From Lingula anatina (Eukaryota; Animalia; Brachiopoda), in assembly GCA_051362555.1 (NCBI GenBank), contig CM120644.1:44035-70453 (forward strand): 26,419 bases of DNA, given 5' to 3'. How positions within the stretch are numbered: position 1 is the stretch's first letter; each line of letters opens with the position of its first letter. The notes beneath the pieces are model-generated. The model was not told where the DNA came from. It did no database searches and saw only the letters and a program-made list of their open reading frames with translations. The position numbers and the translations under genes were made by a program. This document shows, piece by piece, positions 11,991 through 26,342 of this stretch.

Positions 11991-11994
11991 TGTT

Positions 11995-12200
11995 TATTCT
12001 TATTTAGGTTATAGTATATATTTATATATATATTTAATATATAGATATAGTATATATAGTTAGTATAATAATTTATTATTATAGTAAGTATATTACTAAA
12101 GAATATATGTTAAATAAATATATATAGATATGTAATATAAGCTAAATTATCATTATCCCCAGTTTCCTGGATTTTAATAGCTTATATATGTGTTTATTTA
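11995..12200. other. Non-coding TA-dinucleotide-rich tract
   Basis: Repeated TATATA/TATAG, almost no C. Confidence 0.6.
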
Positions 12201-12239
12201 TTTATTCTTGGTTCTTATCTAAGCTTATATAATAGTTTT

Positions 12240-13601
12240 ATGGCAATATCAACAATTTTAGCATTCACTGGAAAACTAAATGCTTGAGCTACTGCTTTAA
12301 GCGGAAGTTCTACAATAATGGTATTAAGATCCATTGGTGTAGTTAATCCATCTAACTTAGTCTTAAATACAATGTTAAGAGTTATGTTTCCAAGATTAAT
12401 ATACAAATTTCCACAACTTTTAAAGTTATTAGATACTAGAAAAGTAATACTTTCATCTAAATCACCATTTCTTACAGCATTAAGAAAACTTGGAGAAAAA
12501 GATAAAAGATTTCAAAAAATTTTAAATAAAAGAGTAATATCTGCTTTTGTTCAAACTCCAAATAAGTATTTACAATTACAACTTAATCAACTTTTAGGAG
12601 ACGTAGTAAATGCTGCTGTTAAAAAAACAACTGGAAAATCTATTGTTGAAATGTCAAATGGTGCTGTTAAGAAAGTTGATATGAAAACTTTCTATCGTTT
12701 TATTAATAACAAAACACAACAAGGTAGAAAAATATTTATAAGTCAAATTAAAAAAAGACTAGCTACATTACTTAAAAATTGATTGTTATCTATGAAATGA
12801 GTGCCAGTTAATAGTTCTTGGATTAAAGAGATTTTTTATATTCCATATAACCCAAAACTTCCAACAGCTAAAAGAGTTTTATTAACAGAAAAAGAACTAA
12901 GAGAAATGAATTATGGAATGATGTGAACTGTAATTGATAAAGGTGGAAAAATAACTCCAAAAAAGTATGGAGGTATCATTGGTTATCAAGGTGTTAAGAT
13001 TTCTATGATTGAAGAAATGGCAAACTCACCAAAAAATGCTGGTACTGTATATTGACGTAGATATTGAAGAAATAGATTAAATAAGTTTAAAAGATTTTTA
13101 CGTGGTGAAAGAAAAAGAAATAGAAATATAAAAAGAAAAGAAACTAAGGAAAGAATACGTAGAAACAAACAAACAAGACTAATAAAAAAAGGAACAGCAC
13201 AAAGAAATAAAAATAAAAGATTAGAAGATAAATATGAAACAAAGATAAAGAAACGTTCTACTCAATCTTTAAAGACGTTCGAAAAGGCCTTTAAAAGTGG
13301 TGATTTTCAAACGATTTCTCAAATTAAGAGTAAAACTACTAAACTTCAAAATGTTTGAAAGAATAGACGTCTTTCTATAAAAAAACAAATTCAAAAATCA
13401 GGTCTTACATTAACGGCACAACAAGAAACAAGAATATATGGAATTGTAAAATCTAAAAAAACTGGACTTGCATTTAGAAAACATAAGAAAGCAACATTTT
13501 TAAAGACTATTGGAAAGAGCGGTCTACAAAAAACAATTGGATATAGAAGACCAACAAAAGAACAAATAAGAGCTAAGAGAAAATTGAAATTAAAAAAATA
13601 G
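12240..13601 (+). CDS. Highly basic protein with a central KTSC-like domain (453 aa)
   Basis: WVPVNSSWIKEIFY...GYQGVKISMIEEMANSPKNAGTVYWRRY resembles the KTSC pattern; K/R-rich C-terminal ~175 aa. Confidence 0.72.
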
Positions 13602-13614
13602 TGTATAATTGATT

Positions 13615-13882
13615 TGATTATTTCGACGATACTGTAAATAATTGTCCCCGTCACTGAGACACAATTTTCAGTGGCTATTCTAGTTATACTTGTAAGTGAA
13701 AACTTATTTAAAAAGATGGTTACTAGGACCAACAGCAATGAGAAGAGTTCTCTACATTATTTAAACGTATGCTGTGCGGATGTAGAGTATCTCTTTTCGA
13801 TTTTGGGGAAAGATTGTATAGTTTAGGAATATACTCCGGAACAGCTGCCGGATTGTTGGATCGTATCCAACCTCCCCAACCA
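13615..13882 (+). ncRNA. Structured non-coding RNA with a 3' tRNA-like domain (5' end approximate)
   Basis: TATAAT at 13604; three multi-stem hairpins including a GAAA tetraloop; cloverleaf ending in CCA; terminator follows. Confidence 0.65.
13804..13882 (+). tRNA. Non-canonical tRNA-like element, no assignable anticodon
   Basis: TGGGGA/TCCCCA acceptor + A + CCA; GTATA/TATAC D arm with GG in the loop; TCCGG/CCGGA arm with 8-nt loop; GTTGG-ATCGTAT-CCAAC T arm. Confidence 0.7.
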
Positions 13883-13894
13883 TTAAAATATAAC

Positions 13895-13943
13895 ATAGAC
13901 TAAGTTGCGTTATTTTCCTTTCTCAACTTAGTCTATTTTTTTT
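13895..13943 (+). terminator. Rho-independent terminator
   Basis: 13-bp perfect stem ATAGACTAAGTTG/CAACTTAGTCTAT followed by T7. Confidence 0.85.
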
Positions 13944-13969
13944 ACAACATAATTTTTTTATGATATACT
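13941..13969 (+). promoter_or_regulatory. Sigma-A promoter for the DNA-metabolism operon
   Basis: TTTACA-17 bp-TATACT with extended TG; AGAAAGGA RBS downstream. Confidence 0.75.
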
Positions 13970-14001
13970 TTTAAGTGACATAGTCAAAGAAAGGAAAAAA
14001 A

Positions 14002-14142
14002 ATGAAAAAAAGATACAGCCATTATCAAATGGAAATATTGTGTACGAGCATATGAGAAGGAATATGTGTGGAATGTGGAGAATTGGTGGATGACGAAACA
14101 ATCGATACAGGTTATTGTAGAGAATGTTGATTAAATAGATAA
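14002..14142 (+). CDS. Small Zn-finger protein (46 aa)
   Basis: CVEC...CREC; strong RBS. Confidence 0.7.
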
Positions 14143-14143
14143 T

Positions 14144-14809
14144 ATGATTTGCGAAAAACAAGAAATAATTAAGAGAAAGTGAAAATATGATTTGATTTTT
14201 AATGAAAAAACTCAAACATATACAAATCCTAATAATAAATATACAATTAGAGTTTCTCAATTATCTAATTATTCTAAAAAGTATTTTGAATTATTTGTTG
14301 AACAAGGTGGACCAATCGCAAGAGAGGTTTTAAGTAAAGCTATTGCTAGAGGAAATGTATTGCATAAAGTATTTCAACTATTAATAACTGGAAAAAATAA
14401 TCATTTGCATAATGTTTTAAATAAAAAACAAGCAGAGAAAACCATATCAAAAAATACAATGAATAAAGTTATTATTCTTTCTAATTTTTGAATGGAACAA
14501 AAAGATAGATATCAATGATTATTAAGTGAAGAACCATTAATGGCAGATATTAAAAAAAAGTCTCAATTGGGAGTAGTTGGTACAGTAGATGCTGTTCTTT
14601 ATGATAAAAAAACTGATAAAGTAATAGTTGTAGACTTAAAGACTACTAAATCTGAGCCAGTTCTTAATGTTATATGGTGAAAATACATAGTAAATATGAT
14701 TTCATATAAACGTTTACTTACAGATAATTTTAATACAGATAAAGAAATAACTATGGAGTTATGATTTATAGAAAAGCACGGAGTAGTAAGAAAAGAAATA
14801 TATGTTTAA
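14144..14809 (+). CDS. PD-(D/E)XK exonuclease, RecB/Cas4-like fold (221 aa)
   Basis: ARGNVLH, SEEPL, GTVDAV and VDLKT motifs. Confidence 0.85.
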
Positions 14810-19954: not shown

Positions 19955-21667
19955 ATGACAGATATAAAAGAAACAAATCCTAAAATGGGATTAAAAGAAA
20001 AAGGTGTAGCAGCTGGTTTAGGAGTATTAGCTATAACTGGTCTTGCTGTTGGTATTGCAGGAACAGATAAAGTACATAGACTTGAAACAGAATTAAAAAA
20101 AGAAATCAAAGCTACAAAAAAACAAACTGGACCTAAAGGTGAAACTGGTGATAGAGGACCAGAAGGACCAAGAGGACCAATGGGGGATAGAGGTAAAACT
20201 GGTGTTAAAGGAGATAAAGGTGAAAAAGGTGATACTGGAAAAGATGGTAAAACTGGTAAAACTGGTCCCTAGAGGAGTGAAAGGTGAACCTGGACCAAAA
20301 GGTGATAAGGGAGAACCTGGGTAAACCTGGAGAAAGTGGACAACAAGGACCTCAAGGAATTAAAGGAGACACTGGAGCTCCTGGACCAACTGGATTACCA
20401 GGATTAGATGGGTTACCAGGACCACAAGGACCAAGAGGTAATACAGGTGAAAGAGGACCACAAGGACTACAAGGACCAAGAGGATTTACTGGTAAAACTG
20501 GACCAGTAGGACCACAAGGACCAAGAGGTGAAAAAGGTAAGTTTGAAACAGAATATAAAGCAAAAGTAGATGTTTTATTAAAATCATTTGATGATTTAAG
20601 AACAAAAATAGATAATCATATAGGTAAATATAAGGAATTAAAAAGTGATTTTAGAACTTTAAAATATAGATATGAAGGAACTGATGGAGATGTTGTTGAT
20701 ATTTCAGATGAAATTAAAGAATTAAAAAACAAAATTAATACAATGTCAACAGAGGAATATTTTGATGAATACTTTGAAGGTAGAGTTCAAGAGATAGCTG
20801 ACTATGTTTTTGAAGGACTAATTAAAAGTTTAGAAAAAGGTAAAGAAAAAGTAAAAGAAAAAGATACAGACTGATTTAGAAAAGCAAGTGATATTTCACA
20901 TAAAGAAACTTGAGGAAAAGCACAAACACCAAGAGATGATCCAAGTGTTAATTTATATAAAAAAAATAGAAACTTTAAAAGAAAAAAATGGATGATTAGA
21001 GTTAAAAATATCACAAAAAGAAAGTGAATTAAAAAGTATTAATAAAAAATATGAATATGCTTTATTTTTAAATAAAAAGATTTCTAAATTAAAAAAAATA
21101 ATAGAACATTCTAAACAAGCATTTAAGTTAAAAGATGAAATTATCGCTAAAGCAGCAGAGAGAGTTGAAAACTTAGAAAATGATAAACTAGCTTTGGATG
21201 GTCAATTAAATATCAAAGAAAAAGAATTAGATAAATTAAAAATTGATTTAGCAGCATTAAAACAAGAAAAAACTCATATAGAAAATACTTTAAATACTGA
21301 AATTAGTAGATTAAAATCTAAAAGTTCTAACAAAGAACAACTAGATGATTTACATAAAGCAATAGCAAATGATGCTTTCTTACTTAAAAAAATGAGTAGT
21401 AAAACTTTAAAACAAAATGAACTTTTAGAGTTTGCTAAATCATTTATTTTTGATATTATGAAAACAAAAGCTAAAATGGTAAATCACTTTAAAGTTTGAC
21501 ATTATGGAACTTTTCAAATATCATTATCAACATTAGAAAACTGAGTTCAATTTAGAGCTTTGGTATTAGATCCTAATGCCAAAGTTGGTGATACTAAATG
21601 AATAAATGGTGAATGTAAATATGAAGATGTTGGTTTAACATTTGAACCTGAAAAAACAGGTGAATAA
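19955..21667 (+). pseudogene. Membrane-anchored collagen/coiled-coil protein (~569 aa) split by three +1 frameshifts
   Basis: N-terminal TM segment; Gly-X-Y register continues across CCC-TAG (20267) and GGG-TAA (20319); coiled coil continues across A8 (20959-20966). Confidence 0.75.
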
Positions 21668-22804: not shown

Positions 22805-23217
22805 TTATGGAATACATAGATACACTAATTACTTTTATTGTAATATCAACAATAATTAAAATTATTTTAATAGCATACATAATGCATTTAATGGTAAAAA
22901 CTAATAATATTATGGCTATGAACAGGGGGGATTGGAAAAAACTATAATTTCATATATTGATAGAATTAGAGAACTGGAGAATTAAAGTAGAAAAATTAAA
23001 GAGAAATGGTAAAGATATATAGCTGTGCATCCTGTGGCAGAACAACAGAACATAATTATTGTAGAAAGTGTTACTATTGCTTATGATGTTGTATATGTAG
23101 AAGGAGATAGCTAAAACACAATCTGGGGGGAGACAAGTTATTCTTTATATCTAATTTTTTTTTATTGTGTTTTGTACCTAATGTATCCCCCCAATTTTTA
23201 AAGAAAGGAAAAATATA

Positions 23218-23537
23218 ATGACAAGTGAATACTTAAAAAAATATATAAAAGAAAACAAAGAGAAAAATTAGAAAATATCAAAAAAAATATAGAGAGGAAA
23301 ACAAAGATAGAGCAAGAGAGTATCAAAAAGAATACAGAGAAAAACACCCTGATTATTGAAACAATTATAGAAAAAGAACTGGGTAATAAATATAATGATT
23401 ACCAAAAAAAATATCAAGAAGAGTATAGAAAAGCTAATGCTGGTTATCAAAGAAAATATAGAGCATTAAATAGACAAAAATGGAAAGAATACTATAGAAA
23501 TTATAAAAAAAAGAACCAAGATAAGGAGGATATGTAA
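23218..23537 (+). pseudogene. Frameshifted basic Y/K/R/E helical-repeat protein
   Basis: YQKKYREENK-type repeats broken at an A run (~23263) and GGG-TAA (~23381); strong RBS. Confidence 0.55.
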
Positions 23538-25736: not shown

Positions 25737-25911
25737 CAAGAACCAGACAATAACCACAACATAGAAAAGAATGGCAGCAGTTAGTTTAATTGTTGCCATT
25801 TTTGCTATGTAACACATAACAAACAAAGCAATTAAGGGGTAACACTTAAAGGCAATAAAAGGATCACAAGCTAAGCAATGGATCACAAACTAATTAATAA
25901 TTAAATTAATT

Positions 25912-25943
25912 AAAGAATAGCTAATTTTTAGCTTGTTTTTTGT
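25912..25943 (+). terminator. Possible Rho-independent terminator
   Basis: AGCTAA-TTT-TTAGCT hairpin with T-rich tail. Confidence 0.45.
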
Positions 25944-26342
25944 TAGTATTGACAGAGTAAAACTAAGGGTGCACTTTCAAAATTAAAGTTAAAAATGGCT
26001 AAGTTATAAAATTAAAAAATAAGCTATAGAACTAAAAACTAGCTAAACTTTGAGAAGCACAAAAAAAGACCACAAGCTAAACTATAAACTAATTAAACAA
26101 TTTAAAAACTATAAAAAGAATAAAACCACTAAAAACATATTAAAAAGCCCCCAAATTAAAGAATTAAGCAATAAACACTATAAAACCATTAAATAATTAA
26201 ATATTAAGCTAATAAATACATTAAAAGCTATAAACTAATTAATTATTAACTAGTTAGTTATTAAGTTATTAAATCCATTATTAGCCCCCCATATTTAGCA
26301 TATGATCCTAAGTTTCTACTAGTTAGTTATTGAGTAGTTAAA

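What the first reader, a model, noticed from the sequence alone, without database searches (positions are those of the whole stretch)
13631..13798. Multi-hairpin RNA domain with possible pseudoknots
Seen: (1) AATTGT/ACAATT (13640/13661), whose loop GTCACTG (13650) can pair with CAGTGGC (13669). (2) TTCTAGT/ACTAGGA enclosing TAAGT-GAAA-ACTTA. (3) GAGAAGAG/CTCTTTTC plus CTCTACAT/ATGTAGAG, whose apical TGCTGT (13770) is complementary to ACAGCA (13732) and to ACAGC in the tRNA-like loop (13841). Inference: a tertiary-folded RNA or switch. The tRNA-like unit might direct RNase P cleavage to set its 3' end.
Basis: partly seen in the sequence, partly recalled or inferred. Interest (0 to 1): 0.7.

Follow-up and report, generated by a model that had tools for sequence, protein, structure and literature searches.

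The report
Phage RNA with remodelled tRNA tail
A gene-free gap in a small phage that likely infects mycoplasma-type bacteria holds a hairpin-rich stretch followed by a reshaped methionine-tRNA look-alike that has lost its anticodon, likely one non-coding RNA that the host's tRNA-cutting enzyme would trim; it matches no catalogued RNA family, and the proposed pseudoknots are unproven.

Summary
All listed pairings exist at the stated coordinates, and the hairpins fold better than shuffles (z -3.94). The window is a complete 26.3-kb phage that reads TGA as Trp and is related to Spiroplasma phages. The finding is the 5' part of a larger unit: -10 box (13604), about 190 nt of hairpins, a tRNA-like unit (13804-13882, encoded CCA), then an intrinsic terminator. 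The tRNA-like unit likely descends from tRNA-Met(CAT): its T arm matches those of viral Met tRNAs, but the anticodon is gone. One relative (low-depth contigs) keeps the stems and CCA and replaces the anticodon loop. That breaks the proposed TGCTGT-to-13841 contact; the ACAATT pseudoknot register is also lost. Five-base loop pairings arise in 79% of shuffles. No Rfam family and no distant homologue were found. Main rival: a C4/CI-like regulatory RNA. The leader can pair with the tRNA's 5' half in a fold of equal predicted energy, but no target was found. Expression is untested.

The parts
12240..13601 (+). Context: last gene of the virion-gene cluster, 453 aa under code 4, with a weakly KTSC-like domain and a very basic tail; not specifically linked to the RNA
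   Evidence: Homologues in Spiroplasma prophages. A homologue hits Pfam KTSC only at E 0.14. In 20 of 24 homologous loci the next ORF starts within 8 nt, leaving no room for an RNA.
13599..13609 (+). Likely -10 promoter element (TATAAT 13604-09); predicted start near 13616
   Evidence: Sequence. The same 11-mer occurs once more, at the gene junction 5327-37. 4 of 6 plus-strand GTATAAT sites lie at gene junctions. The consensus scan did not list this site, so the promoter is inferred.
13616..13649 (+).
   Evidence: Diverged below the alignment threshold in the relative.
13650..13675 (+). Hairpin P2, 10 bp, 6-nt loop; also scores as a weak terminator-like site
   Evidence: Pair probability 1.0. 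The relative's unaligned letters read as a 3' strand complementary to 13650-60, with both G-U pairs turned Watson-Crick (my reading of the loose end; its own 5' strand not seen).
13678..13728 (+). Stem P3 (7 bp) enclosing a GAAA-tetraloop hairpin (13692-13707) and a large internal loop
   Evidence: Pair probabilities 0.55-0.80. Both strands are kept in the relative, one A-U becoming G-U; the tetraloop hairpin is unchanged.
13740..13798 (+). Long hairpin P5: 8 bp, 2x3 internal loop, 9 bp, 7-nt bulge, 4-5 bp, apical loop TGCTG
   Evidence: Pair probabilities 0.91-1.0. Two stem changes in the relative are pairing-compatible if the unseen partner strand is unchanged; one change falls in the internal loop.
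13804..13882 (+). tRNA-like unit, likely derived from tRNA-Met(CAT): 6-bp acceptor, D arm, anticodon stem with an 8-nt non-coding loop, 2-nt variable linker, T arm, discriminator A, encoded CCA
   Evidence: Folds as a cloverleaf alone. ARAGORN finds it only at 85% of threshold. A model built from it retrieves true tRNAs. T arm matches those of 3 viral tRNA-Met genes apart from loop position 54. Relative: 2 changes in 70 nt outside the loop, 6 in the loop.
13895..13943 (+). Predicted intrinsic terminator: 13-bp stem 13895-13907/13924-36 and a T run
   Evidence: Sequence; pair probability 0.999; C>T changes in two relatives each leave a G-U pair. Not listed by the scan because its loop exceeds 8 nt.
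13941..13969 (+). Separate promoter-like site for the downstream operon
   Evidence: 10 of 12 consensus matches plus TG.
14002..14809 (+). Context: first genes of the downstream operon (46-aa Cys-rich ORF, PD-(D/E)XK exonuclease)

Best explanation
The 400-nt gap between the virion genes and the exonuclease operon holds folded hairpins, a tRNA-shaped unit ending in CCA and a terminator-type hairpin, and likely makes one ~330-nt non-coding transcript that host RNase P is predicted to cut at the tRNA-shaped unit. Shown: the sequence elements, the predicted stems, the unit's resemblance to tRNA-Met(CAT), and the pattern of change in one relative (stems, T arm and CCA kept; anticodon loop replaced). 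Inferred: (1) transcription from the -10 box at 13604 to the terminator at 13895-13943; (2) RNase P cleavage just before 13804 (+/- 1 nt), which would give the ~188-nt 5' RNA a defined 3' end; (3) exonuclease trimming back to the encoded CCA, leaving a ~79-nt tRNA mimic that cannot decode and would probably not be charged; (4) selection acts on the tRNA shape as a processing tag, not on the anticodon. The job of the released 5' RNA is not shown; my guess is a phage-acting structured RNA whose hairpins protect it from host exonucleases.
For: Gap of 400 nt with no plus-strand ORF kept in the relative; GC 38% in the RNA against 16-31% in 7 other gaps. Fold z -3.94; top 3 of 625 windows by energy. 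In 149 Mycoplasmatales genomes the unit's model gave hits at E<=0.001 in 9, all 9 ordinary tRNAs. Best global match among the tRNAs of the fetched loci (73 distinct tRNA/tmRNA genes) is a tRNA-Met(CAT), score 57 against 31.6 +/- 4.4 for shuffles. 3 of 80 viral loci carrying its T-arm pattern are full-threshold tRNAs, and all 3 are Met(CAT). Relative X3: 9.0% divergence in six coding contigs (112 of 1245 nt), 5 of 93 in the 5' domain, 2 of 70 in the tRNA-like unit outside its loop. RNase P is in all Mollicutes surveyed and their tRNA genes encode CCA (PMC4014445, passages). RNase P cuts tRNA-like tags in MALAT1, plant mitochondrial t-elements and phage RNAs (PMC4919922, passages).
Against: No expression or processing data. 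Only one informative relative, seen as two contigs of depth 3.5 and 4.4, where single differences may be errors and a common genome is assumed. No two-sided covariation was observed; the five stem changes in X3 are one-sided transitions, and by my rough count from the substitution spectrum all five would keep pairing about 1 time in 10 by chance. The cloverleaf is irregular (6-bp acceptor plus A-C mismatch, 5-6-nt linker, 2-nt variable loop), and in the precursor it competes with an equally stable fold (acceptor probability 0.08-0.48). The first ~90 nt are under 80% identical in the relative. The promoter did not pass the consensus scan. No homologue in related Spiroplasma prophages.
Confidence: 0.5

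Rival explanations
1. C4/CI-like regulatory RNA. The tRNA-shaped unit is the active product. Once cut out by RNase P it would pair, through its variable loop or 5' half, with its own leader or with phage mRNAs and so control termination or translation of the downstream exonuclease/recombination operon and superinfection specificity.
For: Same layout as P4 (promoter, leader, processed RNA, terminator, replication genes; PMC4825925, passage) and a similar size to the 77-nt RNase P-processed C4 RNA, whose variable loop sets specificity (PMC5320573, passages). The two regions that differ most in the relative are the loop and the leader. The leader pairs with the unit at -20.1 kcal/mol; 2.6% of 1000 shuffles and 2.4% of 762 genomic 34-mers do as well; the two folds differ by 1.3 kcal/mol or less. 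The relative's loop is complementary over 7 nt to AGAAAGG, which occurs 12 times in the genome, including just before ORF 14002.
Against: The window's own loop has no such target: best complements lie inside genes, not at start codons; 8 matches at 3 mismatches, 1 being itself, against 3.55 expected. The leader pairing was found after the fact and cannot be checked in the relative. The downstream operon has its own promoter-like site. No Rfam C4 match. No integrase or repressor family among the proteins scanned.
Confidence: 0.2
2. The tRNA mimic is the product (a decoy or competitor for host tRNA-binding proteins or nucleases), and the upstream hairpins are only accessory: a weak terminator for the late genes (P2), a 5' stabiliser, and a possible RNase III site (P5).
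For: The mimic is the best-conserved part. P2 scores as terminator-like. P5 is a 17-bp interrupted duplex, and RNase III and RNase J are present in Mollicutes (PMC4014445). Earlier unchecked notes of this scan describe hairpin-plus-pseudo-tRNA cassettes in other phages.
Against: A decoy for anticodon nucleases should keep its loop, which is the most changed part. P3 and its GAAA hairpin are conserved above the coding average, more than a spacer needs.
Confidence: 0.18
3. The 5' domain is a pseudoknotted ribozyme, riboswitch or T-box-like element that binds its own tRNA-like tail (loop 13770 to 13841; TGGT 13717 to the ACCA end).
For: The complementarities exist; TGGT and ACCA are both unchanged in the relative.
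Against: The 13841 partner is replaced in the relative. No Rfam hit above noise. My descriptor scans found no HDV-like fold, hammerhead core or T-box bulge (motifs recalled, not from a call). Theta ribozymes are proposed to process tRNA 3' trailers, so they lie on the other side of the tRNA (PMC10879173, passages).
Confidence: 0.06
4. A decaying captured tRNA gene with chance hairpins; no current function.
For: Five unrelated windows reach a similar z-score; the element is missing from all distant relatives searched.
Against: 2 changes in 70 nt outside the loop against 9% in coding DNA; all stem changes keep pairing; terminator intact.
Confidence: 0.06

Closest known systems
tRNA-like processing tags (mascRNA/menRNA behind MALAT1 and MEN-beta; plant mitochondrial t-elements)
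   Same: A non-decoding tRNA shape placed behind another RNA, where RNase P would set that RNA's 3' end (PMC4919922, passages). This is what the element most likely works like.
   Different: Here in a bacteriophage, with encoded CCA, full D arm and a recognisable tRNA-Met origin; cleavage untested.
Phage P1/P7 C4 antisense RNA and P4 CI RNA
   Same: ~77-nt RNA cut from a longer leader by RNase P, variable loop, placed ahead of an operon with a terminator.
   Different: No Rfam match; four-arm cloverleaf rather than three stem-loops; no target found for the window's loop; no immunity genes recognised.
tRNA-Met(CAT) of phages and Mollicutes
   Same: T stem and T loop (apart from position 54), G-C-rich anticodon stem, discriminator A and CCA.
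   Different: No CAT anticodon, 8-nt loop, 2-nt variable linker, longer linker before the D stem; below ARAGORN and Rfam tRNA thresholds.
GOLLD and ROOL RNAs
   Same: Structured RNAs of phages and prophages lying at tRNAs (PMC12990946, passages).
   Different: This 5' domain is only ~190 nt, matches neither model, and lies at a degenerate rather than a working tRNA.
Bacterial Y RNA (YrlA)
   Same: tRNA-like domain with D, acceptor and T arms; one member is cut by RNase P (PMC4201824, passages).
   Different: No Ro60 gene among the proteins scanned and no GNCGAA motif.

Membership tests
Functional tRNA-Met(CAT) | 7-nt anticodon loop with CAT | tested here: not met
   8-nt loop without CAT; wholly different in the relative.
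Functional tRNA-Met(CAT) | Canonical cloverleaf spacing (7-bp acceptor, 2-nt linker, 4-5-nt variable loop) | tested here: not met
   6 bp plus A-C mismatch, 5-6-nt linker, 2-nt variable linker; ARAGORN passes it only at 85% of threshold; no Rfam tRNA hit at E<=10.
Functional tRNA-Met(CAT) | T arm and NCCA end | tested here: met
   T arm as in 3 viral tRNA-Met genes; ACCA at 13879-82, kept in the relative.
tRNA-like RNase P processing tag | Acceptor/T-arm helix, D-loop GG and T-loop TC, RCCA end, single-stranded leader | tested here: met
   Present in sequence; cloverleaf pair probabilities 0.93-1.0 in the isolated unit.
tRNA-like RNase P processing tag | Cleavage by RNase P at the base of the acceptor stem | not testable with these tools
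   Needs in vitro assay or end mapping.
C4 / CI antisense RNA | Match to the family model | tested here: not met
   No Rfam hit.
C4 / CI antisense RNA | Loop complementary to targets in the regulated transcript | tested here: inconclusive
   No target for the window's loop; leader pairs with the unit's 5' half at p about 0.025 post hoc; relative's loop fits the ribosome-binding motif.
tmRNA | G3-U70 acceptor, no anticodon arm, tag reading frame between the tRNA halves | tested here: not met
   G3-C70; both acceptor strands lie within 79 nt; ARAGORN and Rfam negative; alignment to two Mollicute tmRNAs no better than shuffles.
Theta / HDV-like ribozyme | Nested double pseudoknot with J4/2 cytosine, at the tRNA 3' trailer | tested here: not met
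   0 hits with a loose descriptor over 13600-13890 (descriptor recalled); the domain is 5' of the unit and a terminator lies 3'.
T-box leader | Antiterminator bulge TGGNACC and position ahead of an amino-acid gene | tested here: not met
   Only TGGT present (motif recalled); no Rfam hit.
Y RNA (YrlA) | Ro60 gene nearby and GNCGAAN0-1G motif | tested here: not met
   Motif absent; no Ro60/TROVE family among 28 proteins scanned in PHROGs and 28 in Pfam.
GOLLD / ROOL | Match to the family models | tested here: not met
   No Rfam hit.

The most novel reading that the evidence does not exclude
A Mollicute phage has rebuilt a tRNA-Met into a self-gated regulatory RNA: the 5' leader clamps the tRNA's 5' half until the cloverleaf refolds, RNase P then releases it, and the freed, strain-specific former anticodon loop serves as a guide - an independently evolved counterpart of C4/CI.
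Probability: 0.12. Interest if true: 0.78.

Novelty: new variant of a known kind. Interest (0 to 1): 0.5.

Why it matters
If expressed and processed as inferred, this is an undescribed phage non-coding RNA in a poorly studied group (phages of wall-less, code-4 bacteria) and a bacterial-virus case of a tRNA reshaped into a processing tag. It is small and fully bounded, so the key step (RNase P cleavage, and whether the leader gates it) is directly testable in vitro. Nine literature searches of the open library listed no paper whose title or abstract start describes it; that library lacks most subscription papers. The architecture itself has precedents, and no function is shown for the 5' RNA.

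Tried and rejected
Genetic code: table 11 and TAG=Q leave the genome fragmented; TGA=W raises plus-strand coverage by ORFs >=100 aa from 41% to 83%; all 10 Trp of the terminase are TGA and several align with Trp in homologues. Small ORF 13671-13826 (51 aa): rejected; the relative has a 1-nt insertion near 13688 and 3 of 4 listed changes are non-synonymous (my reading). Homologue searches that found nothing real: blastn in phages (none) and plasmids (2 chance pieces); viral patterns (1 hit in GC-rich unrelated DNA, none, first 80 of >=120 loci, only ordinary tRNAs, first 80 of >=120 loci, 0 hits with the 5'-domain model); metagenome pattern (6 loci, none scoring); tRNA-like model in 149 Mycoplasmatales genomes (only tRNAs) and 5'-domain model in 151 (1 hit at E 0.027, 21 bits, judged chance); both models on related prophage loci. 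Both models come from one sequence, so distant homologues could be missed. Protein anchors: no relatives by word search; terminase relatives at 35% identity or less. Expression: no RNA holder listed; three RNA runs of the same species label, about 6% read each, gave no reads on the element, which is no test because the phage was not shown in those runs. Single-sequence fold of the upstream KTSC-like domain was too poor to search (pLDDT 48.7). A link between that protein and the RNA was rejected. attP: no integrase recognised. Packaging RNA: the phage has a conventional large terminase. Supplements of papers were not read.

Full report
Setting. The window is a complete circular contig (77-nt terminal repeat) of a phage that reads TGA as Trp. 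Its terminase, portal, 1082-aa protein and 453-aa protein have distant relatives (22-35% identity over the main matches) in Spiroplasma phages and in prophages of Mycoplasmatales genomes (28 of 399 genomes hit by the terminase). The host is therefore probably a Mollicute (inference). The finding lies in a 400-nt gap (13602-14001) between the virion genes and an operon that opens with an exonuclease.

Observation. The region folds at z -3.94 with 0 of 200 shuffles as stable, and the three most stable of 625 windows overlap it. Against over-reading: 5 unrelated windows among 182 scanned reach a similar z in a noisy scan. The confident helices are P2 (13650-75), P5 (13740-98), the anticodon and T stems and the terminator (probability 0.91-1.0); P3 is 0.55-0.80. 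The loop contacts are not beyond chance: 79% of 1000 loop shuffles give a 5-bp contact, 6% one with three GC pairs. The folding program cannot model pseudoknots, so their zero probability is not evidence.

The unit is larger than the finding. A TATAAT box lies at 13604-09, inside an 11-mer repeated at another gene junction; it did not pass the consensus scan, so the promoter is inferred. After the hairpins comes a tRNA-like unit (13804-13882) with encoded CCA, then a 13-bp hairpin with a T run, then a separate promoter-like site. ARAGORN and Rfam report nothing at standard settings; Rfam gives only noise at E<=10; ARAGORN finds the unit at 85% of threshold.

Origin of the tRNA-like unit. A model built from it, with my cloverleaf imposed, hit 9 of 149 Mycoplasmatales genomes at E<=0.001, each at a true tRNA. 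The best global match among the tRNAs in the fetched loci is a tRNA-Met(CAT), 57 against 31.6 +/- 4.4 for 200 shuffles (shuffles compared with the 60 best tRNAs only). Its odd T loop is natural: 3 of 80 viral loci with this T-arm pattern are full-threshold tRNAs, all Met(CAT). The anticodon is gone and the core spacing is altered, so it is not a working tRNA.

One informative relative. Run X3 holds a phage about 9% diverged in coding DNA (112 of 1245 nt in six contigs). Two contigs of depth 3.5 and 4.4 cover 13689-13781 and 13805-13971. In the 5' domain there are 5 differences in 93 nt, 4 of them listed: three in stems that keep pairing (partner strand seen for one only) and one in an internal loop. 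In the tRNA-like unit there are none in 13805-39, two in 13848-82 (one G-U, one at T-loop position 54, giving the loop of two viral Met tRNAs), and five substitutions plus an insertion in the 8-nt loop. The CCA is kept and change resumes right behind it. Terminator changes in X3 and X2 leave G-U pairs. Upstream of 13689 the relative does not align; its 30 visible letters keep the 5' strand of P3 and read as a 3' strand complementary to window 13650-60 with both wobbles turned Watson-Crick (my reading), while ACAATT is not at its place. So the hairpins are supported, modestly (one-sided transitions; roughly 1 in 10 by chance on my count), the contact with 13841 is refuted, and the other two contacts are unsupported. 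Low depth means single differences may be errors.

Alternative fold. The leader 13631-49 can pair with 13805-22, which would block the acceptor and D stems. The two folds are within 1.3 kcal/mol; the duplex is matched by 2.6% of shuffled leaders and 2.4% of 762 genomic 34-mers. This was found after the fact and cannot be checked in X3.

Mechanism. Most likely (0.5) a stand-alone transcript is cut by RNase P at the tRNA shape, giving a ~188-nt 5' RNA and a ~79-nt non-decoding mimic. RNase P is universal in the Mollicutes surveyed and their tRNA genes encode CCA (PMC4014445, passages); tRNA-like tags are known RNase P substrates (PMC4919922, passages). Rivals: C4/CI-like regulator (0.2; PMC5320573 and PMC4825925, passages; no target found); mimic as product with accessory hairpins (0.18); ribozyme or T-box-like element (0.06); decay (0.06). 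None of these steps was tested experimentally, and no run could test expression.

Distribution and novelty. No homologue was found beyond X2 and X3 (searches listed under Tried and rejected); single-sequence models limit reach. Homologues of the upstream gene run straight into the next ORF in 20 of 24 loci printed (25 fetched), so the RNA is not part of that gene family's context. It fails membership tests for tRNA, tmRNA, C4, theta ribozyme, T-box, Y RNA, GOLLD and ROOL, but likely works like a tRNA-shaped processing tag. Papers were seen as passages only (also PMC12990946, PMC4201824, PMC10879173); others only as search listings; no supplements. Earlier scan notes on similar cassettes in other phages were not checked and are not counted as support. 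Verdict: real, probably transcribed, uncatalogued; architecture has precedents; interest 0.5.

Noticed in passing
window 13840-13847: The former anticodon loop contains the self-complementary hexamer CAGCTG, which could allow a kissing dimer; the relative's loop is instead pyrimidine-rich and complementary over 7 nt to the phage's AGAAAGG ribosome-binding motif.
   Followed up: partly
window 13717-13721 and 13878-13882: TGGTT in the P3 internal loop is complementary to the AACCA end; both are unchanged in the relative. Short enough to be chance.
   Followed up: partly
window 12240-13601: 453-aa protein with a KTSC-like domain by eye and a very basic tail; homologues in 26 of 398 Mycoplasmatales genomes, where checked between capsid-like and connector-like prophage genes; Pfam KTSC only at E 0.14 for a homologue.
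   Followed up: partly
window 11991-12239: 249-nt gap of 16% GC with long AT-rich inverted repeats and a strong fold score; possibly an origin or terminator region.
   Followed up: no
window 23120-23200: G-run/C-run stem enclosing about 55 nt just ahead of a ribosome-binding motif.
   Followed up: no
window 25737-26342 and 1-292: About 900 nt without long ORFs across the circular junction, with C-rich runs and short repeats; candidate origin or packaging site.
   Followed up: no
window 19955-21042: Collagen-like gene split over two frames near 20270-20290; frameshift or assembly error. A similar split affects the repetitive ORF at 23219-23500.
   Followed up: no
L157 351-427, L193 390-464, L236 390-464: Viral tRNA-Met(CAT) genes with a non-canonical T loop (T at position 58).
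   Followed up: partly
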